From: a virus
Taxonomy: Duplodnaviria > Heunggongvirae > Uroviricota > Caudoviricetes
IMG/VR virus record: IMGVR_UViG_2778261009_000009
Direction: 5' to 3' (one strand)
Length of the DNA: 35,253 nucleotides
The position numbers and the translations under genes are program-made. Numbering within the stretch: the first letter of the stretch is position 1; each line of letters begins with the position of its first letter. The notes below the pieces were generated by a model. That model was given only the letters and a program-made list of their open reading frames with translations, had not been told where the DNA came from and did no database searches. This document shows positions 3,351 through 34,319 of this stretch, one piece after another.

Positions 3351-4177
3351 AAGAAATGCACCACGGAATTCATCATTTCCATGGGACGCCTGTCTGGGGA
3401 AGTGCTGGCGACGTTCATCGTATTGCGGTGAGCGGAGCTGGCGCTTTCGTCTCCTATGTACGACCAGATCAGATTGCGGCGTCCATTCAGCACGCTCAGG
3501 TCGTCGGCATTGATAACGGCGCATTTTCTGCATGGGTGCGTGGGCTAAAAATTAACTGGAGTGATTTTTATAAATGGCTCCTGAACTATTACCACCATCC
3601 TAAGGTCGCTTTTTTTGTCATTCCTGATGTTGTGGACGGAGGTGAACGTGACAATGATGCCCTGATAAACGAAGTTCCGAAAATGTTCTACGGGAAGGCA
3701 ACTCCCGTCTGGCATCTGCACGAGTCAATCGATCGGCTTATCGAGCTATGTCGTGAATGGCCTCGTGTCTGCTTTGGATCGTCTGGTGAATATGCGGCTA
3801 TCAGAACTGCGCACTGGCATCGTCGTATGCAGGACGCTTTTGAAGCAATTTATTGCCGACACAATTTCAAAACAGCTGTTCATGGTTTGCGCATGCTTGA
3901 CGGTCGTGTGTTGGGAAATTACCCACTGGCGACTGCCGACAGTACAAATCTTGCCTGCAATGTCCCCAAATTTAATAGCAAATATCCTGAGCTGACGCGG
4001 GCTATTCAGGAGGCTGAGTATTCGCGCAATCTGACGGAAAAGGAGCTGAAAGCTGTCATTCTGAAAAACCGTTGCGCAATTTTAAAAGGTGCAATTGAAG
4101 CTGTTCGCCCACCTTCAGTTTCTGATTGGCTGTCGAATGGTTTGCAGCCTTCACAGCTCGAACTGGAGATTGCGTAA
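3347..4177 (+). CDS. TGT-fold (tRNA-guanine transglycosylase-like, possibly DpdA-like) protein; hypothesis
   Basis: 276-aa ORF with motifs resembling TGT catalytic-Asp segments (VVGIDNGAF ~ LTDSGGFQ; FFVIPDVV ~ MIFDEC; GLRMLDGR ~ GIDMFDC); no CxCxxC zinc motif; start overlaps dam stop. Confidence 0.45.
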
Positions 4178-6518
4178 TGAACTACAGCTATTCCTGGAAT
4201 GCTGAGAAAAAAGCAATCAATCCTTACGTAGAGACGGAAGAGCAATCTTCAGTTTCTGCGCTTTCAAACCTGATCGCTCTGTACGCTGCCGATAACGAGC
4301 AGGAACAGCTGCGCCGCGAGGCACTGAGTGATCAGGTCTGGGAGCGTTATTTCTTTAATGAATCCCGTGATCCTGTCCAGCGCGAAATGGAGCAGGATAA
4401 GCTCATTAGTCGGGCAAAGCTGGCGCATGAGCAGCAGCGTTTTAATCCAGATATGGTCATTCTGGCGGACGTTAATGCCCAGCCTTCCCATATCAGCAAG
4501 CCACTGATGCAACGTATTGAATACTTCAGCAGCCTGGGCAGGCCAAAGGCTTATTCCCGCTATTTGCGTGAGACGATTAAGCCATGTCTGGAACGGCTGG
4601 AGCATGTACGCGACTGTCAGCTATCCACTTCTTTTCGCTTTATGGCAAGCCATGAAGGGCTGGACGGCCTGCTGATCCTGCCTGAAATGAGTCAGGATCA
4701 GGTGAAACGCCTGTCCACCCTGGTAGCTGCGCATATGAGCATGTGCCTTGATGCAGCTTGTGGCGATTTGTATGTCACCGATGACGTTAAGCCAGAAGAA
4801 ATCCGCAAGACATGGGAAAAGGTGGCAGCGGAAACCCTGCGTCTGGATGTTATCCCGCCTGCGTTTGAGCAACTCCGCCGGAAAAGAAACCGCCGTAAAC
4901 CCGTGCCCTATGAACTCATTCCGGGTTCGCTGGCGCGTATGTTGTGCGCTGACTGGTGGTACCGGAAATTATGGAAGATGCGTTGCGAATGGCGGGAAGA
5001 GCAGTTGCGTGCTGTCTGCCTGGTCAGCAAAAAGCATCTCCCTATGTCAGCTATGAAGCCGTGATGCATAAACGTGAGCAGCGCCGTAAGTCGCTGGAGT
5101 TTTTTCGTTCTCATGAACTGGTGAACGAAGACGGCGACACGCTGGACATGGAGGATGTGGTAAACGCCAGCAGCAGCAACCCTGCGCATCGCCGCAATGA
5201 GATGATGGCCTGTGTTAAAGGCCTGGAGCTTATCGCGGAAATGCGCGGTGACTGCGCCGTTTTCTACACCATCACCTGTCCGTCACGTTTCCATTCCACG
5301 CTAAATAATGGCAGGCCCAACCCAACTTGGACAAATGCGACGGTAAGACAAAGCAGTGATTATCTGGTCGGCATGTTTGCTGCATTTCGTAAGGCGATGC
5401 ACAAAGCCGGATTGCGGTGGTATGGCGTGCGGGTGGCTGAGCCGCATCATGACGGTACAGTTCACTGGCACCTGTTGTGTTTTATGCGCAAAAAAGACCG
5501 CCGCGCCATCACTGCATTACTGCGTAAGTTTGCCATCCGTGAAGACCGCGAGGAACTGGGCAATAACACTGGGCCGCGCTTTAAGTCTGAGTTGATTAAC
5601 CCGCGCAAAGGTACGCCAACAAGCTACATCGCGAAATACATCAGTAAGAACATTGACGGGCGTGGTCTGGCTGGCGAGATCAGCAAGGAAACGGGGAAAT
5701 CCCTGCGTGATAATGCTGAATACGTTAATGCCTGGGCGTCTCTGCATCGTGTTCAGCAATTCCGCTTCTTTGGCATTCCGGGGCGTCAGGCTTACCGTGA
5801 ACTGCGATTGCTGGCTGGTCAGGCGGCAAGGCAACAGGGGGACAAAAAAGCAGGTGCGCCGGTACTGGATAACCCGCGCCTTGATGCCATCCTGGCTGCT
5901 GCTGATGCTGGTTGTTTTGCCACCTACATCATGAAGCAGGGCGGCGTACTGGTTCCCCGCAAATATCACCTCATCAGAACCGCTTATGAAATCAACGAAG
6001 AGCCGACCGCCTATGGCGATCACGGCATTCGTATTTATGGCATCTGGTCACCTATTGCAGAGGGCAAGATCTGCACTCATGCCGTGAAGTGGAAAATGGT
6101 TCGTAAGGCCGTTGATGTTCAGGAGGCGGCAGCCGACCAGGGCGCTTGCGCCCCTTGGACTCGTGGCAATAACTGTCCCCCTGTTGAAAATTTGAACCAA
6201 TCAGGGGGCGATTTACCAGAAGCCAGTGGGCCGGAGTCGCTGCCGGATCTTCATAATCTGAGCGCGAAGGAACGACGGGAGCTGACGGCGCGGCTGAGAT
6301 TGGTAAAACCTAAGCGGCGGAAAGGGTACAAACAGCAGATTAGCAATCATCAGCGCCAGCAGCTTGATGCTGAACTGAGGTCTAGGGGGTTCGATGCGAG
6401 TGATACCGAGGTGGATCTGCTTTTGCGTGGTGGCAGTATCCCGTCCGGGGCCGGGCTGCGTTTGTTCTATCGAAACCAGCGCCTGCAGGAAGATGATAAA
6501 TGGCGGCAGTGGTACTAA
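4177..6518 (+). CDS. A: Replication initiation protein A (HUH rolling-circle endonuclease), interrupted by a frame change near 5029-5034 (ORFs 4177..5064 and 4956..6518)
   Basis: [16 protein letters not shown] motif and [12 protein letters not shown] tyrosine motif in the downstream frame; both frames resemble P2 A across the junction as recalled from memory. Confidence 0.8.
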
Positions 6519-17467: not shown

Positions 17468-17861
17468 AGCGGTGCCTTATGTCCGCAATAACCCGGACAA
17501 ACTGCATCTGTTTGTGGATAACGGTTCGCTGGTTGCCACGGGGGTCAGCTCCATGTCGTGGGAGTACCGTTACACCCTGAACGCGGTGATTGAGGATTTC
17601 AGCGGCGACCAGAATCTGCTGATGGCCCCGGTTTTGCTGTGGCTGAGGGATAACCAGCCCGATGCCATCAATAACCCGGCGTTACGGGAAAAACTATTCA
17701 CCTTTGAGGTGGATATTCTGCGCAACGATGTCTGTGATATCAGCCTTAACCTGCAACTGACGGAGCGTGTGCTGGTCAGCACTGACGGCAGTGTGTCGAA
17801 CGTTGAAGCGGTAGCGGAACCTGATGAACCTGAAGAAATGTGGACGGTGAAACGTGGCTGA
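17430..17861 (+). CDS. R: tail completion protein gpR-like (GTG start at 17430 after CAGGAG; alternative TTG at 17409)
   Basis: Size and position as P2 R. Confidence 0.75.
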   Translation: MNKPQSLRHALNKAVPYVRNNPDKLHLFVDNGSLVATGVSSMSWEYRYTLNAVIEDFSGDQNLLMAPVLLWLRDNQPDAINNPALREKLFTFEVDILRNDVCDISLNLQLTERVLVSTDGSVSNVEAVAEPDEPEEMWTVKRG

Positions 17862-18300
17862 ACTGCAGAAGGTGGACGACTGGCTGAGTGCCTTGCTGGC
17901 GAATCTGGAACCAGCCACGAGAAGTCGCATGATGCGCCAGCTGGCGCAGGAACTGCGCCGGACACAGCAGCAGAACATCAGGATGCAGCGCAATCCAGAT
18001 GGCAGCAGTTATGAACCTCGACGGGTAACAGCACGCAGTAAAAAGGGGCGCATCAAACGTCAGATGTTTGCAAAGCTGCGCACCACAAAATACCTGAAAA
18101 CTGCCGCCAGCGCCGACTCTGCCAGCGTACAGTTTGAAGGTAAGGTGCAGCGTATTGCCCGTGTTCACCATTACGGCCTGCGCGATCGCGTCAGTCGCAA
18201 AGGACCGGAAGTTCGTTACGCAGAGCGTCGGTTGCTGGGTCTTAATGGTGAGTCTTACGTTCTAACTCTTGATATATTGAATAGATTCCTTCTGTCTTGA
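17854..18300 (+). CDS. S: tail completion protein gpS-like (GTG start); last ~19 codons lie in AT-rich inserted DNA
   Basis: Size and position as P2 S; 3' end overlaps convergent moron gene. Confidence 0.75.
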   Translation: MAELQKVDDWLSALLANLEPATRSRMMRQLAQELRRTQQQNIRMQRNPDGSSYEPRRVTARSKKGRIKRQMFAKLRTTKYLKTAASADSASVQFEGKVQRIARVHHYGLRDRVSRKGPEVRYAERRLLGLNGESYVLTLDILNRFLLS

Positions 18301-19048
18301 ATTCACCATATGCCCAATGAATTGCATTTTTTTGTTCAGTCAGAATATATTTCCTAACTTTTTTAGAATAATGAATGGTCAGTATAAAACCCAAAGAAAT
18401 CCATAATAGAATAAATATGGTTGTTGGGGCAAAGGAATAGATAAAGAATTTGTCTTTAACGAAATTCTTGACTTCTTCATCAATGTAAGCATTCCCTTCA
18501 TCAGTGGTTAGTAGTTTACAAAGAATTTCTTTATGTTCGATAGTTAATGATTTGTACTTCTCTGTACTGGCAGAGGATGACTCTTCGCAATCATCCTTTG
18601 ATATTTCCCAATCAGGAGTGGTTAATATTGTAGCTGCAGTCGCCAGTTTTTTTGACATATAAAATGATTCACCGGACTTTATCCAATAAAGCAATGTGCT
18701 ATTTGGTGGGGTTCTAATGGCTTGGATGAAAACTGGACCAAAAATATAAATTGCATACAAAAAAAGAAGTGAAAAGAGAACCGTGATTGATTTTTCAGCC
18801 CATGTGATAGTAGGCAGCCTTTTTAATGATATTCGTATAAGAAAAAAATTTAATATAAACGCAGGTATTCCTGATTTTTTCAAAATTACATCATGAGATT
18901 TTCTATATTTGAATAGTGCTCTTATAACTATCGTCACCAAAGTTATAATAGCTCCAATAATGGAAATCCATGCGGCAAGTGCCGCTGCCGGGGTGTTTAA
19001 AAATTCAGCATTAAATATATTAGAACTTATTGGATTCATAACACTCAT
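18242..19048 (-). CDS. moron-encoded membrane protein (268 aa, about 4 TM helices with central soluble region), unknown function
   Basis: AT-rich minus-strand ORF between S and V; AGGTGG RBS; hydrophobic segments at N-terminus, ~88-110 and ~210-232. Confidence 0.6.
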   Translation of the reverse strand: MSVMNPISSNIFNAEFLNTPAAALAAWISIIGAIITLVTIVIRALFKYRKSHDVILKKSGIPAFILNFFLIRISLKRLPTITWAEKSITVLFSLLFLYAIYIFGPVFIQAIRTPPNSTLLYWIKSGESFYMSKKLATAATILTTPDWEISKDDCEESSSASTEKYKSLTIEHKEILCKLLTTDEGNAYIDEEVKNFVKDKFFIYSFAPTTIFILLWISLGFILTIHYSKKVRKYILTEQKNAIHWAYGEFKTEGIYSIYQELERKTHH

Positions 19049-19105: not shown

Positions 19106-19151
19106 ATTTGCAAGAAGTTATAAACAAGTTTTCAGCTGTCATCATATATCT

Positions 19152-19730
19152 ATGAACGCACAATTAACCGAAATCATGCGCCTTATCACCAACCTGATCC
19201 GCACAGGGGTAGTCACCGAAGTGGACAGGGAAAACTGGCTTTGCCGGGTGAAAACGGGCGAGCTTGAAACCAACTGGATCAGCTGGCTGACGCTGCGTGC
19301 CGGGAATGCCCGCACATGGTGGCGACCATCGGAAGGTGAGCAGGTGGTGCTGCTTAGTCTGGGCGGCAATCTGGAAACAGCCTTTGCGTTACCCGCCATC
19401 TATTCGAATCAGTTCGCGCCACCGTCGACGTCGGCGGACGTCTGCGTGACAGAACATCCTGATGGTGGCTGGTTTGAATACGAACCCGCCACCGGGCGCT
19501 GGTATGTCAGGGGCATCAAATCAATGGTCATTGAGGCCGCTGACAACATCACCCTGAAAACCAGTGAGTTTGTACTGGAGGCTGACCGCACGCGCATTAA
19601 CAGCGAAGTGGTGATCAATGGTGGCGTTACCCAGGGCGGCGGAGCGATGAGTTCTAACGGGATCGTGGTTGATGCGCATCAGCATACTGGCGTCCTGAAA
19701 GGCGGCGACACAACCGGAGGCCCGGTATGA
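19152..19730 (+). CDS. V: baseplate spike/assembly protein gpV-like
   Basis: 192-aa ORF from internal ATG 19152; upstream extension to 18909 lies in the moron region and is rejected. Confidence 0.8.
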   Translation: MNAQLTEIMRLITNLIRTGVVTEVDRENWLCRVKTGELETNWISWLTLRAGNARTWWRPSEGEQVVLLSLGGNLETAFALPAIYSNQFAPPSTSADVCVTEHPDGGWFEYEPATGRWYVRGIKSMVIEAADNITLKTSEFVLEADRTRINSEVVINGGVTQGGGAMSSNGIVVDAHQHTGVLKGGDTTGGPV

Positions 19731-20981: not shown

Positions 20982-21579
20982 TCTGCTGCCACCGGGTTCA
21001 ACGCCACTAGAGCGCCGACTGGCGCAAGCGTGCAGCGGGATTTCTGATTTGCAGGTGCCGCTGCGTGACTTGTGGAATCCGGCAACCTGTCCAGTCAGTT
21101 TCCTGCCTTATCTCGCCTGGGCGTTCTCTGTGGATCGCTGGGACGAGGGCTGGACAGAAAGCGTCAAGCGCCAGGTGGTGAAGGATGCTTTTTATATTCA
21201 TCAGCATAAAGGGACCACCAGTGCCGTGCGGCGGGTGGTGGAGCCGTTCGGCTTTCTGATCCGCATTATTGAGTGGTGGCAGACCGGAGAGGCACCGGGC
21301 ACGTTTCGCCTGGATATCGGCGTGCAGGACCAGGGCATCACTGAAGATACCTATCTGGAACTTGAGCGACTGATAAGCGATGCCAAACCATGTAGCCGTC
21401 ACATGATCGGCATGTCCATCAATCTGCAGACCAGCGGCCCGCATTGGGTGGGAGCCGCCAGCTATCTTGGCGAAGAAATCACGATCTATCCGTATATCAA
21501 CGAAACAATTATTTCCGGTGGCACCGCGCATGAAGGCGGGGCGGTCCATGTTATTGACACAATGAGAGTGAATCCATGA
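20974..21579 (+). CDS. I: baseplate/tail protein gpI-like
   Basis: 201-aa ORF overlapping J stop. Confidence 0.8.
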   Translation: MNSLLPPGSTPLERRLAQACSGISDLQVPLRDLWNPATCPVSFLPYLAWAFSVDRWDEGWTESVKRQVVKDAFYIHQHKGTTSAVRRVVEPFGFLIRIIEWWQTGEAPGTFRLDIGVQDQGITEDTYLELERLISDAKPCSRHMIGMSINLQTSGPHWVGAASYLGEEITIYPYINETIISGGTAHEGGAVHVIDTMRVNP

Positions 21580-23117
21580 GCACAAAATTTTATACCCTGC
21601 TGACGGATATTGGCGCGGCGAAACTTGCCAGCGCCGCCGCGCTCGGTGTGCCTTTAAAAATTACCCATATGGCGGTCGGCGATGGCGGCGGAACATTGCC
21701 AACGCCGGACGCAAAGCAGACAGCATTGGTAAATGAGAAACGCCGGGCTGCGCTGAATATGCTCTATATCGACCCGCAGAACAGCAGCCAGATTATTGCC
21801 GAACAGGTAATCCCTGAAAACGAGGGCGGTTGGTGGATACGTGAAGTGGGCCTGTTTGATGAGTCAGGGGCATTGATTGCCGTGGGAAACTGCCCGGAAA
21901 GCTATAAGCCGCAACTGGCTGAAGGCAGCGGGCGTACCCAGACCGTGCGCATGGTGCTGATTACCAGCAGCACGGACAATATCACCCTGAAAATCGACCC
22001 TGCTGTAGTGCTGGCAACCCGCAAGTATGTGGATGACAAGGCACTGGAGCTGAAGGTGTACGCGGATGATCAGATGGCAAAACATCTTGCCGCACCGAAC
22101 CCGCATTCACAGTATGCAGCCAAAGAAAGTCCTACGTTTACCGGGACACCCAAAGCGCCAACGCCAGCGGCGGGGAATAACACCACGCAGGTTGCGACCA
22201 CCGCATTTGTTCAGGCGGCACTGACGGCTCTTATTAATGGTGCGCCAGCCACGCTGGACACGCTGAAAGAAATAGCCGTAGCCATTAACAATGATCCGAA
22301 ATTCAGTACCACCATTAACAATGCGCTGGCACTGAAAGCGCCGCTGTCGAGTCCGGCACTCACCGGAACGCCAACAGCCCCTACGGCGGCGCAGTCGGTC
22401 AATAATACACAGATTGCCACTACGGCTTTTGTGAAATCGGCGATTGCAGGAATGGTGGGTTCTGCACCTGCGGCACTGGATACACTGAACGAACTGGCGG
22501 CGGCACTGGGGAATGATCCGAACTTTGCCACGACAATGCTTAATGCGCTGGCAGGTAAACAACCGCTGGACAATACGCTGACTAATTTGAGTGGAAAGGA
22601 TGTAGCTGGTCTTCTCACATACCTTGGTTTGGGAGAAGGCTCTGCATTACCTGTTGGTGTGCCTGTTCCGTGGCCTTCCGCCACTCCGCCGACAGGCTGG
22701 CTGAAATGCAACGGAGCAGCTTTTTCTGCTGAAGAATACCCGGAACTGGCAAAGGCTTATCCGACAAATAAATTGCCTGATTTACGCGGTGAATTTATTC
22801 GTGGCTGGGATGACGGACGTGGAGTGGATAACGGAAGGGGATTATTAACGCTTCAGGACGGTGCGATTGTCAGTCATAACCACTATTGGGGAATCTGGAC
22901 TTCACGAACTAACGACCAGACTCTGGAAAGTTTTACAGGCACCACGATTTTAAAACAAATCACGCCCCTGTCTCCAGCCATTGACTTCGATAATTACCCA
23001 ATTCCCAACCCGGCTATTACAGAGGGTGGTGTTGTTGCGGCAACGACTAAACCTGCAGGTGCGAATGAAACACGCCCACGAAATGTCGCTTTTAACTATA
23101 TTGTGAGGGCTGCATAA
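21576..23117 (+). CDS. H: tail fibre protein gpH-like; constant part 21576-22637 fused to the currently expressed variable C-terminal domain 22638-23117
   Basis: 513-aa ORF with N-terminal fibre anchor, two copies of a ~75-aa fibre repeat, C-terminal receptor-binding-like domain. Confidence 0.85.
   Translation: MSTKFYTLLTDIGAAKLASAAALGVPLKITHMAVGDGGGTLPTPDAKQTALVNEKRRAALNMLYIDPQNSSQIIAEQVIPENEGGWWIREVGLFDESGALIAVGNCPESYKPQLAEGSGRTQTVRMVLITSSTDNITLKIDPAVVLATRKYVDDKALELKVYADDQMAKHLAAPNPHSQYAAKESPTFTGTPKAPTPAAGNNTTQVATTAFVQAALTALINGAPATLDTLKEIAVAINNDPKFSTTINNALALKAPLSSPALTGTPTAPTAAQSVNNTQIATTAFVKSAIAGMVGSAPAALDTLNELAAALGNDPNFATTMLNALAGKQPLDNTLTNLSGKDVAGLLTYLGLGEGSALPVGVPVPWPSATPPTGWLKCNGAAFSAEEYPELAKAYPTNKLPDLRGEFIRGWDDGRGVDNGRGLLTLQDGAIVSHNHYWGIWTSRTNDQTLESFTGTTILKQITPLSPAIDFDNYPIPNPAITEGGVVAATTKPAGANETRPRNVAFNYIVRAA
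22612..22637. other. invertase crossover site (hix/gix-like 26-bp site, left) inside H
   Basis: ttctcacataccttggtttgggagaa; reverse complement shares 14 of 14 bp (ttctcccaaaccaa) with the second site; central AA dinucleotide. Confidence 0.7.
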
Positions 23118-23719
23118 TGAATAACGCAGAATTAAACAGTGAATTAATTGCCACTATAGCAGGAGAAATTACTGTTTATAACTTTGACGTCATGAGTCGG
23201 GAGTATATTTCAGCTTCAACTGAATATCTTGCTGTTGGTGTCGGCATTCCGGCATATTCCTGTTTAGATGCTCCAGGCACCTACAAAGCTGGTTATGCAA
23301 TCTGCCGCTCTGCAGATTTTAACTCATGGGAATATGTACCAGACCATCGCGGTGAAATTGTCTTTAGCACCGAAACAGGAGAATCAAAAGAAATCACAGC
23401 ACCGGGTGATTACCCTGATAATACAACCACTATCGCCCCGTTAACGCCATACGATAAATGGGATGGTGAGAAATGGGTGACGGATACCGAGGCACAGCAT
23501 AGCGCCGTAGTAGATGCAGCAGAAGCACAGCGCCAGTCGCTGATTGATACAGCAATGGCTTCTATCAGTCTGATTCAACTGAAATTACAGGCCGGACGGA
23601 ATCTGACGCAGGCAGAAACCGCCCGACTTAACGCTGCGCTGGATTACATTGACGCGGTGACGGCAACAGATACCAGCACCGCACCGGATGTCATCTGGCC
23701 TGAACTGCCGGAGGCGTAG
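23117..23719 (+). CDS. G: tail fibre assembly protein (Tfa, gpG-like), expressed orientation
   Basis: 200-aa ORF overlapping H stop; conserved C-terminal APDVIWPELP-type motif. Confidence 0.8.
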   Translation: MNNAELNSELIATIAGEITVYNFDVMSREYISASTEYLAVGVGIPAYSCLDAPGTYKAGYAICRSADFNSWEYVPDHRGEIVFSTETGESKEITAPGDYPDNTTTIAPLTPYDKWDGEKWVTDTEAQHSAVVDAAEAQRQSLIDTAMASISLIQLKLQAGRNLTQAETARLNAALDYIDAVTATDTSTAPDVIWPELPEA

Positions 23720-24110
23720 GCCATTCAATATCTGGAGCACTGGAGGGATCAACCAGTTCCAGTGCGTCCAGATAATCCAGCCATAAATTATATTGCGCCA
23801 GTTCCTCACCTTTCAGACGACCAATAGCCGCTTTACCTAGCCATTGTCTGCTGTTCATGTGCTCGTTGGCTTCATTAATAAGTTTTCTTTTTTCCAACTC
23901 CACCAATGCAATAAGGTTTTCTTTTGATAAAGGTGGTTGCTCTGTCAAAACCGGATATCCCTCCTGATTGCTGACTATTTTCATGCCATTATCCTGACCA
24001 TCCAGTAGTAACAGCCATTCATCCGTGGTTATCTCAACAGCATCTGAAGGTGCTTTATTTAAATCGGTAAAAAAACCATTTTCTTTTTGTGAATAGAAGT
24101 ATCTGTCCAT
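23691..24110 (-). CDS. alternative tail fibre assembly protein (Tfa'), silent orientation
   Basis: 139-aa ORF with Tfa-type C-terminus SAPDIEWPTPP; follows alternative fibre segment on minus strand. Confidence 0.7.
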   Translation of the reverse strand: MDRYFYSQKENGFFTDLNKAPSDAVEITTDEWLLLLDGQDNGMKIVSNQEGYPVLTEQPPLSKENLIALVELEKRKLINEANEHMNSRQWLGKAAIGRLKGEELAQYNLWLDYLDALELVDPSSAPDIEWPTPPAVQAR

Positions 24111-24113
24111 TTA

Positions 24114-24487
24114 TCAATCTCCAAAAGCAATCCAGTAAGCAAAAGGATTTATTCCTTGCTCAGTCACAGATGACATCAGGGAAAATTGCGATGGTGAAAC
24201 AGGCAATGCTGCAAAACTAACCATTGTTGACACACCTGACCGTGCATTATCGTACGATGCAACAACACAATAATTGGTATTGCTGAAAGATATCGGCAGG
24301 GTGATATTTACAGGTGAGCCTAATGGTCCTGATGCTGATATTCCCATTTGAATGATGGTTCCATCAGGCAATTTTCTCCAGCGATTAGAACTCGGATTTC
24401 TTTTCCAGGCTGACATATCCGGTATCTGATTTTCTCCTGTACCCACATCCCTTTTCGCCGCTTCTCCCAAACCAACGTTTATTAAAA
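24114..24487 (-). CDS. alternative tail fibre C-terminal variable segment (H'v), no own start; becomes fused to H constant part after inversion
   Basis: Reading frame continues through crossover site encoding GLGE shared with H (…YLGLGE); ends 3 nt before Tfa' start. Confidence 0.65.
24462..24487. other. invertase crossover site (hix/gix-like 26-bp site, right), next to invertase gene
   Basis: ttctcccaaaccaacgtttattaaaa with central AA; inverted relative to site at 22612-22637. Confidence 0.7.
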
Positions 24488-24542
24488 TGCAGAGATAATG
24501 GCTAACTGGCATCATCCATGGTTTTTATTCAGGGGATTGATC

Positions 24543-25109
24543 ATGCTTATTGGCTATGTACGCGTGTCAACAAATGACCAGAACACCGATTTGCAACGTA
24601 ATGCACTGAACTGCGCGGGATGTGAGCGGATTTTTGAGGATAAAATCAGTGGCACTAAGCCCGACAGACCGGGGCTTAAAAAACTGCTCAGGACACTATC
24701 GGCTGGAGACACTCTGGTTGTCTGGAAGCTGGACAGGTTGGGGCGCAGTATGCGGCATCTTGTTACGCTGATAGAAGAGTTGCGTCAGCGTGGCGTGAAT
24801 TTCCGAAGCCTGACTGACAGTATTGATACCAGCACCCCAATGGGCCGTTTCTTTTTTCATGTCATGGGGGCCCTGGCTGAAATGGAACGCGAACTGATAG
24901 TTGAACGTACCATGGCAGGGCTGGCTGCAGCTCGTGCCAAAGGCAGAGTAGGTGGACGCCGTCCTAAGTTGACCACCGAACAGTGGGCACAGATTGGGCG
25001 TTTACTCGAGGCCGGAGAATCAAGACAGCGTATTGCACTGATTTTTGATGTAGGCGTTTCTACCATTTATAGAAAATTTCCGGCAAATAAGAGCAATGAA
25101 TCCCCCTGA
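24543..25109 (+). CDS. serine DNA invertase (Hin/Gin/Cin/Pin family)
   Basis: N-terminal MLIGYVRVSTNDQ catalytic-serine motif, resolvase domain, C-terminal HTH; ATG 24543 with AGGGGA RBS. Confidence 0.85.
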   Translation: MLIGYVRVSTNDQNTDLQRNALNCAGCERIFEDKISGTKPDRPGLKKLLRTLSAGDTLVVWKLDRLGRSMRHLVTLIEELRQRGVNFRSLTDSIDTSTPMGRFFFHVMGALAEMERELIVERTMAGLAAARAKGRVGGRRPKLTTEQWAQIGRLLEAGESRQRIALIFDVGVSTIYRKFPANKSNESP

Positions 25110-32633: not shown

Positions 32634-34319
32634 TTATCCTAATCCTGGCCATACCATGACGATGATTGTCCCTGCCAGCGTCAGCAGGACGTTGGCGATT
32701 GCATAGGTGCCCGCATAGCCCAGCGCCGGGATGTTACTGCGAGCTGTATCACTGATGATCTCCATTGCCGGCGCGCAGGTACGTGCGCCCATCATTGCGC
32801 CGAACAACAGCGCGCGGTTCATTCGCAATACATAAGCACCGAACAAGAAACAGATAACCACGGGCACCAGACTGACAATCAATCCGGCAATCAACATCTG
32901 ACCGCCAATCGCGCCCAGGCCGTTATTAATACCGCTACCGGCGCTCAGACCAACGCCTGCCATAAACACCATCAAGCCGAACTCTTTCACCATGCTTAAT
33001 GCACCCTGCGGAATGTAACCGAAGGTCGGGTGGTTAGCACGCATAAAGCCCAGCATAATTCCGGCGAATAACAACCCGGCAGCGTTCCCCATGCCGAAAC
33101 TGAATGTGCTGAACTGGAAGGTGATCATCCCGATCATCAGCCCAATAACAAAGAAGGCGCAGAATGCCAGCAGGTCAGTGACCTGGCTGTGAATCGAGAT
33201 AAAGCCGATGCGATCGGCGATGGTTTTTACGCGGCGGGCATCGCCGCTGACTTGTAAAACGTCACCTTTGTTAAGCACGACGTTGTCATCTATCGGCATC
33301 TCAATCTGGCTACGAATGACGCGGTTAAGGAAGCAACCGTGATCGGTCAACTTCAGTTGTGCGAGACGTTTACCTACAGCGTTATGGTTTTTAACGACCA
33401 CTTCTTCAGTGACGATACGCATGTCGAGAAGGTCACGATCGAAAACTTCTTTACCGTTACGGAAGCTGGGATCGAGTCGGGCATGGGCGTCGGGATAGCC
33501 TACCAACGCTATTTCATCGCCCATTTGTAGCACGGCATCACCGTCTGGATTTGCCAGAATCCCGTTACGTCGAATACGTTCAATGTAGCAGCCGGTTTGT
33601 CGATAAATACCCAGTTCACGCAGATTTTTGCCGTCGGTCCAGGCCACCAGTTCCGGGCCGACGCGATAGGCGCGGATCACCGGTAAATAAACCTTACGGT
33701 TGGCATCAGTGTCCAGGCCACGTTCGCGGGCGATTTGCTGGGCGCTGGTCTGTAAGTCCTGATGCTGCAATTTCGGCAAGTAACGCGCACCAACAATCAA
33801 ACTCACCAGACCGATTAAATAGGTTAAGGCATACCCGAGGCTCAGATTATCCAGTGCCAGTGAGAGCTGCCTGCTTTCCATGCCGGAATGACGCAGTGTA
33901 TCGCCAGCACCGACCAGAACCGGTGTCGACGTCATAGAGCCTGCTAACATACCGGCCGTCAGGCCAATATCCCAGCCAAACAGCTTACCTAACCCTAAGG
34001 CGATCACCAGCGCACTGCCAACCATCACCAGTGCTAACATTAGGTAATTTTTCCCATCGCGAAAAAAAATGGAAAAAAAGTTCGGTCCGGCTTCGACCCC
34101 GACGCAGAAAATAAACAGCATAAAGCCAAGATTAAGCGCATCGGTGTTAATGCTGAAATGTTGTTGGCCTAATAACAGCGATACGACTAAAACGCCAATG
34201 GAATTACCCAGTTGGATCGAACCAAGTCGTAACTTTCCGAGACATAGCCCAAGCGCGAGGACCACAAATAATAACAGAATGTAATTCCCATTTAACAATT
34301 CGGCGACGTTTATATTCAC
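32634..34319 (-). CDS. ybjL: host putative transporter YbjL (AAE family, 561 aa, GTG start)
   Basis: Multi-TM N- and C-terminal halves flanking soluble RCK_C-like repeats; recognised as E. coli YbjL. Confidence 0.8.

What the first reader, a model, noticed from the sequence alone, without database searches (positions are those of the whole stretch)
22126..22565. Internal duplication in the tail fibre shaft
Two consecutive ~75-aa units in H (SPTFTGTPKAPTPAAGNNTTQVATTAFVQAAL…ALKAPL and SPALTGTPTAPTAAQSVNNTQIATTAFVKSAI…AGKQPL) are clearly paralogous at protein level but diverged at DNA level, consistent with an old duplication of a fibre-repeat module just upstream of the invertible junction.
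Basis: seen in the sequence. Interest (0 to 1): 0.2.

Follow-up and report, generated by a model that had tools for sequence, protein, structure and literature searches.

The report
Tandem shaft module in tail fibre
The P2-type prophage tail-fibre gene contains two old, diverged copies of a 73-residue building block that is very common in phage tail fibres. This is a real but ordinary feature, and its copy number (1, 2 or 3) varies among related prophages.

Summary
Tail-fibre gene H (21576-23117, +) holds two adjacent units, u1 (22128-22346) and u2 (22350-22568). They align without gaps at 43/73 residues (BLASTP E = 9e-28; z = 28.7 against shuffles). Their DNA is only 62% identical, 36% at third codon positions, dS about 1.75, and Tandem Repeats Finder sees no repeat.

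The unit is not special to this gene. A profile of it matches 40,579 protein-cluster representatives, with up to 23 matched stretches per protein and a dominant 74-residue period. It consists of two separable sub-modules, A (SPxxTGxPxAPT…TQIATTAFV) and B (APxxLDTLxELAxAL…), which also occur alone or in other orders. Pfam and NCBIfam have no model for it.

P1-like fibre S carries the same u1-type + u2-type pair. P2 H and lambda Stf carry only the u2 type. So the split is ancient, and it need not have arisen in this gene.

Close relatives have one unit or three. Two of the three 3-unit alleles examined contain chimeric u2/u1 middle units, the signature of in-register unequal crossovers; the third has a 99% copy of u1.

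The pair lies in the constant part of the fibre and ends 43 nt before the left crossover site of a verified invertible segment. It most likely acts as a trimeric shaft spacer. This is ordinary and of low interest.

The parts
21576..23117 (+). Tail-fibre gene H (513 aa) of a P2/186-like prophage, in its current orientation
   Evidence: ORF. Pfam PF12571 matches aa 1-150 (3e-65) and Collar PF07484 matches aa 361-408. PHROG 327 'tail protein' scores 2.9e-216. Neighbouring genes are V, W, J, I upstream and sheath and tube downstream.
21576..22025 (+). N-terminal domain of the fibre (aa 1-150); baseplate attachment is inferred
   Evidence: PF12571 Phage_tail_fib is matched over its full length, 1-150/150. 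The attachment role is inferred from the known position of this domain in P2-type fibres.
22026..22127 (+). Linker between the N-terminal domain and unit 1 (aa 151-184)
   Evidence: No family hit. It is not part of the repeat.
22128..22229 (+). Unit 1, sub-module A (SPTFTGTPKAPTPAAGNNTTQVATTAFVQAALTAL)
   Evidence: Defined by the unit alignment. The A sub-module occurs on its own in arrays in other fibres.
22230..22346 (+). Unit 1, sub-module B (INGAPATLDTLKEIAVAINNDPKFSTTINNALALKAPL); a linker Ser codon follows at 22347-22349
   Evidence: The B half is 90% identical to the B half of unit 1 of P1-like RCS47 S.
22350..22451 (+). Unit 2, sub-module A (SPALTGTPTAPTAAQSVNNTQIATTAFVKSAIAGM)
   Evidence: It matches the A-like motifs of cyanophage A4 gp24 (9k09_A, residues 194-223) and of phiTE long tail fibre (9cuy_g, residues 135-169).
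22452..22568 (+). Unit 2, sub-module B (VGSAPAALDTLNELAAALGNDPNFATTMLNALAGKQPL)
   Evidence: It aligns to Bxb1 gp4 (9d93) residues 196-244 with E = 9e-12. The B half is 90% identical to that of P1-like S unit 2 and 82% to that of P2 H.
22569..22611 (+). Connector (DNTLTNLSGKDVAG…) between the repeat pair and the crossover site
   Evidence: Sequence. The stretch 22542-22639 is 90-97% identical in otherwise unrelated fibre genes of E. coli prophages and P1-like plasmids (H179-H185).
22612..22638 (.). Left inverted-repeat arm (crossover site) of the invertible segment, encoding …LLTYLGLGE
   Evidence: Inverted repeat I1: 27 nt, 81% complementary to 24461-24487. In-silico inversion keeps the reading frame. 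Megablast homology with many phages breaks at query position 1062-1063.
22639..23117 (+). Variable C-terminal receptor-binding part now fused to H (Collar domain and a T4 gp37-like tip)
   Evidence: PF07484. PDB 2xgf (T4 gp37 tip) E = 1.4e-15 and 9cuy_c E = 1.2e-14.
23117..23719 (+). Tail-fibre assembly chaperone for the current orientation
   Evidence: PF02413 Caudo_TAP, 9.4e-33.
23691..24110 (-). Alternative tail-fibre assembly chaperone, used after inversion
   Evidence: PF02413, 6.4e-25.
24114..24487 (-). Alternative variable C-terminal part (Gp53-like_C), including the right inverted-repeat arm at 24461-24487
   Evidence: PF21882, 1.7e-13. Inverted-repeat arm. The fused 469-aa product is 466/469 identical to P0013.
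24498..25109 (+). Serine DNA invertase (Resolvase + HTH_7). The true start is probably the ATG at 24540 (MLIGYVRVS…)
   Evidence: PF00239 1.2e-52 and PF02796 1.8e-15. Relatives encode 188-aa recombinases at the same position.

Best explanation
The finding is a tandem pair (architecture A-B-A-B, 74-residue period) of a very widespread tail-fibre shaft module. It sits in the constant part of a P2-type fibre protein H, between the N-terminal domain and the junction where the invertase swaps receptor-binding tips.

Each 73-residue unit has two parts. The first is a Pro/Thr-rich extended stretch that leads into a helix (sub-module A). The second is a helix-loop-helix with a conserved L-D-T-L-x-E-x-A-x-A core (sub-module B).

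Inferred mechanism: in the homotrimeric fibre each unit adds one fixed-length rigid segment, a short beta-helical turn followed by helical bundles. The number of units would then set how far the receptor-binding tip stands from the baseplate. The units carry no specificity of their own.

The two copies belong to two old types. The u1 type is usually followed by another unit. The u2 type lies close to the global consensus and also serves as the last unit before the connector. P1-like fibre S has the same two types in the same order, so the duplication long predates this gene's present form.

The copies share at most 12 nt of exact in-register identity, which plausibly keeps the pair fairly stable. 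Rare in-register unequal crossovers at short identical patches still gain a unit, and apparently lose one, giving 3-unit and 1-unit alleles.

What is shown: the repeat, its spread, its sub-modularity, the type relationships, the copy-number variants and their chimeric junctions, and the invertible segment. What is inferred: the trimeric structure and the spacer role.
For: - Significance of the repeat.
- DNA divergence.
- Spread: the unit profile matches 40,579 representatives at E <= 1e-3 and 13,466 at <= 1e-10, with up to 23 stretches per protein. The two-unit stretch (aa 185-331) matches 32 PHROG families, most of them tail or tail-fibre families. tblastn finds the module in 767 phage records, including P2, lambda, P1-like phages and actinophages.
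- Sub-modularity: A-only arrays, B-only arrays, AB arrays of 9-11 copies, AAB and ABA architectures. The dominant start-to-start spacing is 74 aa in 46 cases.
- Type relationships: identity matrix. u1-like units are followed by a further unit 23 times and are the last unit 2 times.
- Copy-number variants among close relatives: of 120 clusters, 108 have 2 units, 5 have 3 in tandem, and 7 have 2 plus one in the variable part.
- Junctions of the 3-unit alleles: the middle unit of L001 switches from u2 to u1 within nt 132-140, with only 3 mismatches to its flanking units. L002 switches near nt 75-77. L003 carries a 99.1% copy of u1.
- One-unit alleles: phage pro483 and E. coli C11, with a u1-type body and a u2-type end. 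The breakpoint falls on the 12-nt shared run. In three E. coli genomes the matched region spans 351-353 nt instead of about 575, i.e. one unit (222 nt) shorter.
- Two-unit form: present at >= 80% coverage in 925 of 5426 complete E. coli genomes.
- Structure: AlphaFold2 with a 122-row alignment gives pLDDT 81.6. About 24 residues of the unit are extended, followed by helices at unit positions 25-37, 40-52 and 59-67. L43, T45, L46, E48, A50, A52 and D56 are nearly invariant.
- phiTE long-tail-fibre residues 135-169 carry an A-like motif. [quoted passage not shown]
- Position in the constant part of the fibre.
Against: - No solved structure covers a complete A-B unit. In 80alpha FibU the matching region was not modelled (PMC7048315).
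- I could not check which residues are modelled in Bxb1 gp4 (9d93).
- The phiTE match is weak by sequence (E = 4.1) and by Foldseek (E about 0.6-0.9). Assigning it to the beta-helix and helical bundle relies on combining the residue range with the paper's text.
- The AlphaFold2 model is a monomer with pTM 0.39, so only its secondary structure is usable.
- No experiment links unit number to fibre length or host range.
- The one-unit alleles sit in a diverged H lineage whose N-terminal domain also differs. They may be an older state rather than deletion products.
- The copy-number counts come from a score-ranked top 120 and are not an unbiased census.
Confidence: 0.8

Rival explanations
1. A single ancient tandem duplication happened inside the ancestor of this very gene. 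The two copies then diverged in place.
For: The copies are adjacent, in register and in frame, with saturated synonymous divergence. Fresh duplications of exactly this kind do occur in the same gene: L003 carries a 99.1% identical copy of u1.
Against: u2 is 75-84% identical to units in P2 H, lambda Stf and P1-like S but only 59% to u1. u1 is 79% identical to unit 1 of P1-like S. The split is therefore older than these genes in their present mosaic form. Homology with other fibres breaks at module boundaries. Synonymous sites are saturated for nearly all pairs, so the order of events cannot be dated.
Confidence: 0.15
2. The similarity is compositional or convergent: Ala/Thr/Pro-rich fibre sequence rather than common ancestry.
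For: The units are rich in A, T, P and N. BLAST's low-complexity filter masks the first 14 residues.
Against: The score is 28.7 standard deviations above composition-preserving shuffles. BLASTP with compositional adjustment gives 9e-28. The alignment is ungapped over all 73 positions, with 43 identities spread along its length.
Confidence: 0.01
3. The conserved units serve mainly as DNA homology patches that promote exchange of downstream receptor-binding parts between phages, rather than as structural spacers.
For: The end of u2, the connector and the crossover site (22542-22639) are 90-97% identical at DNA level in otherwise unrelated fibre genes, including those on P1-like plasmids. Homology to other phages ends at the crossover site or a little beyond it. 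Relaxed homologous recombination between phages and prophages is documented (PMC3945230, listed; not read here).
Against: High DNA conservation is confined to the last ~27 nt of u2 and the connector. The bodies of u1 and u2 are conserved as protein but not as DNA (36% third-position identity, dN/dS about 0.19), which indicates selection on the protein. The module is also conserved in actinophage and cyanophage fibres that have no shared DNA.
Confidence: 0.1

Closest known systems
Phage P2 tail-fibre protein H (and P2-like fibres such as pro483 H)
   Same: Same N-terminal PF12571 domain. Same gene position after V-W-J-I and before the fibre assembly gene. Same A-B unit followed by a connector ending in …YLGL.E.
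   Different: P2 H has one unit, of the u2 type (79% to u2). That unit is preceded by a different repeat (…SSATNSTSETLAATPKAVK…) which this H lacks. P2 has no invertase. pro483 H has one unit with a u1-type body and a u2-type end.
Constant part of tail-fibre protein S of P1-like phages (RCS47) with the Cin-type invertible segment
   Same: It has the same tandem pair, u1 type then u2 type, at a 74-aa period (79% and 84% identity; both B halves 90%). The pair lies just upstream of the junction where a serine invertase exchanges C-terminal parts and chaperones.
   Different: The N-terminal 250 residues and the baseplate attachment differ. The S protein is 975 aa. The DNA of the units is only 71-73% identical, with saturated synonymous sites.
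Phage lambda side tail fibre Stf (orf-401/orf-314)
   Same: It has one u2-type unit (75% identity), followed by the same kind of connector and a Collar/gp37-like tip ending in …NIAFNYIVRLA.
   Different: It has a single copy on a siphovirus side fibre with an unrelated N-terminal part. In the lambda reference sequence J02459 the unit begins upstream of, and runs into, the annotated orf-314. From my own knowledge, this is where the known stf frameshift lies.
Pfam PF03406 'Phage tail fibre repeat' (Phage_fiber_2)
   Same: It is a short repeat found in the same class of enterobacterial phage fibres. It is precomputed on some fragments that also carry the A-B unit.
   Different: It is a different repeat. 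Neither H nor the isolated units match it, even at E <= 10.
Fibres with partial structural coverage: phiTE long tail fibre (9cuy), cyanophage A4 gp24 (9k09), mycobacteriophage Bxb1 gp4 (9d93)
   Same: phiTE and A4 fibres contain A-like motifs and Bxb1 gp4 contains a B-like motif. phiTE and A4 fibres are described as trimeric, with beta-helix and alpha-helical stem elements.
   Different: Each carries only one sub-module type. None shows the full A-B unit or the tandem pair. Sequence matches are weak for A (E = 1e-3 to 4).

Membership tests
P2 gpH-type tail fibre (PF12571 N-terminal family) | N-terminal Phage_tail_fib domain matched over its full length | tested here: met
   PF12571, 3.1e-65, positions 1-150 of 150.
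P2 gpH-type tail fibre (PF12571 N-terminal family) | Gene order: baseplate V-W-J-I, then the fibre, then the fibre assembly chaperone, then sheath and tube | tested here: met
   ORFs and Pfam hits. The same order is seen in relatives L001-L003 and L009.
A-B tail-fibre shaft module (as in P2 H, P1 S, lambda Stf; no curated family) | Full-length match to the 73-residue consensus SPxxTGxPxAPT…Q.ATTAFV…P..LDTL.ELA.A.G.D..F..T…KAP | tested here: met
   Both units align without gaps to each other and to units of P2, lambda and RCS47. The consensus comes from 228 units of 150 diverse proteins.
A-B tail-fibre shaft module (as in P2 H, P1 S, lambda Stf; no curated family) | Head-to-tail arrays with a 74-residue period | tested here: met
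   The start-to-start distance in the window is 74 aa. This is the dominant spacing in other proteins, with 46 cases.
A-B tail-fibre shaft module (as in P2 H, P1 S, lambda Stf; no curated family) | Forms an extended homotrimeric shaft segment | not testable with these tools
   Only monomer AlphaFold2 is available (pLDDT 81.6, pTM 0.39). Indirect support comes from the phiTE and A4 trimeric fibres.
Pfam PF03406 Phage_fiber_2 repeat | Match to the PF03406 profile | tested here: not met
   No hit for H or for the isolated units, even at E <= 10.
Din-type (Gin/Cin/Hin-like) invertible tail-fibre segment | Inverted-repeat crossover sites of about 26 bp flanking the segment, one of them inside the fibre gene | tested here: met
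   Arms at 22612-22638 and 24461-24487, 27 nt, 81% complementary.
Din-type (Gin/Cin/Hin-like) invertible tail-fibre segment | Adjacent small serine recombinase with a C-terminal HTH | tested here: met
   PF00239 and PF02796 on ORF 24498-25109.
Din-type (Gin/Cin/Hin-like) invertible tail-fibre segment | Inversion yields an in-frame alternative C-terminus with its own chaperone | tested here: met
   In-silico inversion gives a 469-aa protein, 466/469 identical to P0013. The alternative chaperone is at 23691-24110 (-).
Din-type (Gin/Cin/Hin-like) invertible tail-fibre segment | Inversion actually occurs (both orientations present in a population; enhancer and Fis dependence) | not testable with these tools
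   Both fusion forms exist as database proteins. No read-level or experimental data are available for this locus.

The most novel reading that the evidence does not exclude
The 73-residue A-B unit and its two sub-modules may be one of the commonest building blocks of phage fibres that still lacks a curated family. It appears in more than 40,000 protein clusters, from enterobacterial myophages to actinophage and cyanophage fibres, with no Pfam or NCBIfam model. It follows a simple combinatorial grammar: A arrays, B arrays and A-B arrays at a 74-residue period, with units that tend to be followed by another unit versus units that also close the array. Copy number changes by microhomology-level unequal crossovers. 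On this reading, unit number would be a naturally tunable fibre-length dial, and the saturated synonymous divergence between neighbouring copies would help keep arrays from collapsing by recombination.
Probability: 0.3. Interest if true: 0.4.

Novelty: already known. Interest (0 to 1): 0.15.

Why it matters
For this window it matters little. The repeat is a normal part of a common prophage fibre, and the two-unit form is present in at least 925 of 5426 complete E. coli genomes.

The wider points are practical:
- The module is a good candidate for a curated domain family, because current libraries leave about 150 residues of such fibres unannotated.
- The natural 1-, 2- and 3-unit alleles, with their mapped chimeric junctions, show where units can be added or removed in frame. 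That is useful for engineering the length of P2-, P1- or tailocin-type fibres.
- The result is a reminder that adjacent paralogous units in mosaic phage genes need not have duplicated where they now lie.

Tried and rejected
- Pfam and NCBIfam scans of H and of the isolated units found no meaningful family over aa 151-355. The only hits were noise such as Acyl-CoA_ox_N at E = 0.04.
- Tandem Repeats Finder on the gene reported nothing.
- The repeat finder did not report the pair either, because the DNA is too diverged.
- AlphaFold2 on a single sequence of aa 151-355 gave pLDDT 39.7 and was unusable. It was replaced by a run on a 122-row alignment of one unit.
- Foldseek of that model against the PDB gave only weak hits with E > 0.5. 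I used them as a lead and checked them by sequence.
- 80alpha FibU (6v8i) looked like structural evidence for sub-module B, but the paper states that nothing beyond residue 123 was modelled. I dropped it.
- A search for the paper behind 9d93 (Bxb1) did not find it in the library. PMC13252515 was read and turned out not to be relevant.
- The classic comparative paper on P1/p15B fibre genes (PMC206102) is not held. Statements about the 1990s literature therefore rest on my own knowledge.
- dS-based dating of u1/u2 against the P1, P2 and lambda units failed, because most pairs are saturated or not computable.
- The second homologue search with the unit profile returned only short fragments. It was useless for copy-number counts, but I used the fragments as the alignment for structure prediction.
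- I considered and rejected two ideas: that the minus-strand ORFs overlapping the repeat (22107-22562 and 22211-22711) are genes, since they lie antisense to a well-supported conserved gene; and that the similarity is purely compositional.
Full report
**What is at the coordinates**

The window carries a P2/186-like prophage. Its early region encodes a CI repressor, CII, a Dam methylase and replication protein A. Its late region follows the usual order: V, W, J, I, fibre H, fibre chaperone, invertase, sheath, tube and tape measure.

The finding lies in H (21576-23117, +, 513 aa). Pfam places the P2-type fibre N-terminal domain PF12571 on aa 1-150 and a Collar domain on aa 361-408. It places nothing on aa 151-355, and NCBIfam has nothing either.

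- The units are u1 = aa 185-257 (nt 22128-22346) and u2 = aa 259-331 (nt 22350-22568), joined by one Ser codon. The period is 74 aa.
- The ungapped alignment has 43/73 identities. It scores 222, against 35 +/- 6.5 for shuffles (z = 28.7). BLASTP gives E = 9e-28.
- At DNA level the copies are 61.6% identical, and 36% at third positions. Only 19 of the 43 conserved residues share a codon.
- The longest common exact run is 12 nt. NG86 gives dN 0.34 and dS 1.75.
- Tandem Repeats Finder and the DNA repeat finder both miss the pair.

'Paralogous as protein, diverged as DNA' is therefore correct.

**Position relative to the invertible segment**

A 27-nt inverted repeat (22612-22638 and 24461-24487) flanks 1822 nt. 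That interval holds the current variable tip, two oppositely oriented Caudo_TAP chaperones and an alternative Gp53-like tip on the minus strand. A serine invertase gene lies next to it.

Inverting the segment in silico gives an in-frame 469-aa fibre that is 466/469 identical to database protein P0013. u2 ends 43 nt before the left arm. The pair therefore belongs to the constant part of the fibre, shared by both tips.

**What the unit is**

A profile of the two units, run against 1.84 billion cluster representatives, finds 40,579 proteins at E <= 1e-3 and 13,466 at <= 1e-10. Some have up to 23 matched stretches. The two-unit stretch (aa 185-331) matches 32 PHROG families, most of them tail or tail-fibre families. 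tblastn finds the module in 767 phage records. These include P2, lambda and P1-like phages, jumbo phage Goslar, and many Mycobacterium and Gordonia phages.

I split the profile into positions 1-34 (A) and 35-73 (B). The unit proves to be a composite. The top 150 proteins show A-only arrays, B-only arrays, A-B arrays of 9-11 copies, and AAB and ABA patterns.

Where full units follow one another, the commonest spacing is 74 aa, with 46 cases. The consensus of 228 units is SPALTGTPTAPTAAxGTNxTQIATTAFVxAAIAALVxSAPAALDTLNELAAALGNDPNFATTxTNALAxKAPL. u2 is close to this consensus, and u1 is the more diverged copy.

**How old is the duplication, and where did it happen**

I extracted units from known phages and compared them.

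| Comparison | Identity |
|---|---|
| u2 vs the single unit of P2 H | 79% |
| u2 vs lambda Stf | 75% |
| u2 vs unit 2 of P1-like RCS47 S | 84% |
| u2 vs u1 | 59% |
| u1 vs unit 1 of RCS47 S | 79% (B half 90%) |
| u1 vs the single unit of pro483 H | 88% |

P1-like S thus has the same two types in the same order, just before its own invertible junction. Among diverse representatives, u1-like units are followed by a further unit 23 times and are last in the array twice.

Synonymous sites are saturated for nearly every pair, so relative dating by dS fails. The reading that fits best is two old unit types that move between fibre genes as modules. A duplication private to this gene fits less well.

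**Copy number among relatives**

- Of the 120 best-scoring clusters of close H homologues, 108 have two units, 5 have three in tandem, and 7 have two plus a third diverged unit inside the variable part. This list is ranked by score and is not a census.
- I fetched DNA for three 3-unit alleles.
  - In L001 the middle unit is identical to the third unit up to nt 140 and then follows the first unit. The breakpoint interval is the 8-nt ACACTGAA, with only 3 mismatches overall.
  - In L002 the switch is near nt 75-77, with more mismatches. The event is older, or the donor was more diverged.
  - In L003 the middle unit is a 99.1% copy of the first.
  - L001 and L002 therefore carry chimeric middle units, the signature of in-register unequal crossovers. 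L003 is a near-exact duplication of u1. All three junction types are distinct.
- One-unit alleles exist in phage pro483 and E. coli C11. Their unit has a u1-type body and a u2-type end (…NALSGKQPLD). The best breakpoint falls on the 12-nt run shared by u1 and u2.
- In complete E. coli genomes, 1217 of 5426 match the region and 925 cover at least 80% of the two-unit query. Three sampled hits span 351-353 nt instead of about 575, exactly one unit shorter.

**Structure and likely function**

Single-sequence AlphaFold2 was useless. With a 122-row alignment of unit fragments, the model of aa 255-345 reaches pLDDT 81.6. About 24 residues of the unit are extended, followed by helices at unit positions 25-37, 40-52 and 59-67. 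pTM is 0.39, so only the secondary structure is trustworthy.

The nearly invariant residues L43, T45, L46, E48, A50, A52 and D56 fall on the second helix. Three of them (L43, L46, A50) sit at i, i+3, i+7 spacing, as expected for a bundle core. This last point is an inference.

PDB sequence searches give three leads:
- Sub-module B aligns to Bxb1 gp4 (9d93, E = 9e-12).
- Sub-module A aligns to two motifs in cyanophage A4 fibre gp24 (9k09). That fibre is described as a trimer (PMC12002296).
- Sub-module A also aligns to phiTE long-tail-fibre residues 135-169 (9cuy_g).

The phiTE paper models residues 14-171 of that trimer. [quoted passage not shown] This mapping is an inference.

Putting this together, each unit most likely adds one rigid trimeric segment to the shaft. 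Unit number would then set the reach of the tip. Purifying selection on the protein (dN/dS about 0.19), together with free synonymous drift, fits a structural role.

**Comparison with what is known**

From my own knowledge, similarity between P2 H, P1 S, Mu S, lambda Stf and T4 gp37 was described in the early 1990s by Haggård-Ljungquist and colleagues and by Sandmeier, Iida and Arber. I could not read those papers here.

The present gene is an ordinary member of that mosaic group. It has the P2-type N-terminus, the P1-type double unit and junction, and a lambda/T4-type tip. PF03406, the curated 'phage tail fibre repeat', is a different motif and does not match.

**Verdict**

It should be reworded: this is an old pair of module types that may have been imported as a pair, in a family where unit number still changes. 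Nothing here is surprising to a phage specialist, so interest is low. Two minor points are worth keeping: this very common module has no curated family, and natural alleles mark the in-frame junctions for adding or removing a unit.

Noticed in passing
window 18242-19048 (-): A 268-aa membrane-protein ORF (Pfam DUF6216, 1.6e-11; no PADLOC hit) lies on the opposite strand between tail genes S (17854-18300) and V (about 19150-19730). Relatives L001-L003 and L009 have only about 69 bp there. It looks like inserted cargo (a 'moron'). From my own knowledge, phage P2 carries orf30 at this position.
   Followed up: partly
window 4126-6518 (+): Replication gene A appears split. ORF 4126-5064 carries positions 1-115 of the GPA profile and ORF 4956-6518, in another frame, carries positions 107-321. 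This suggests a frameshift or a sequencing error near 5000-5060. If it is real, the prophage may be defective for replication.
   Followed up: no
window 22542-22639: The last ~27 nt of unit 2, the connector and the left crossover site are 90-97% identical at DNA level to fibre genes of P1-like plasmids and other E. coli prophages that share nothing else with the query (H179-H185). This looks like a shared recombination junction.
   Followed up: partly
proteins P0006-P0012 (aa 361-433), close H alleles: Some alleles carry a third, diverged A-B unit (53-55% identical to u1 and u2) downstream of the crossover site. It lies inside the variable, invertible part of the fibre.
   Followed up: partly
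L007 (lambda J02459), locus 2459-2674: In the lambda reference sequence J02459 the A-B unit begins upstream of the annotated orf-314. orf-314 starts inside sub-module B (MTNALAGKQPK…).
   Followed up: no
window 24498-24542: The invertase ORF as listed starts at 24498, only 11 nt after the right inverted-repeat arm. Relatives encode 188-aa recombinases, so the real start is probably the ATG at 24540 (MLIGYVRVS…).
   Followed up: no
window 32634-34319 (-): A 561-aa Asp-Al_Ex/TrkA_C permease, apparently a host gene, lies here. The right end of the prophage should therefore fall between about 32.1 and 32.6 kb.
   Followed up: no
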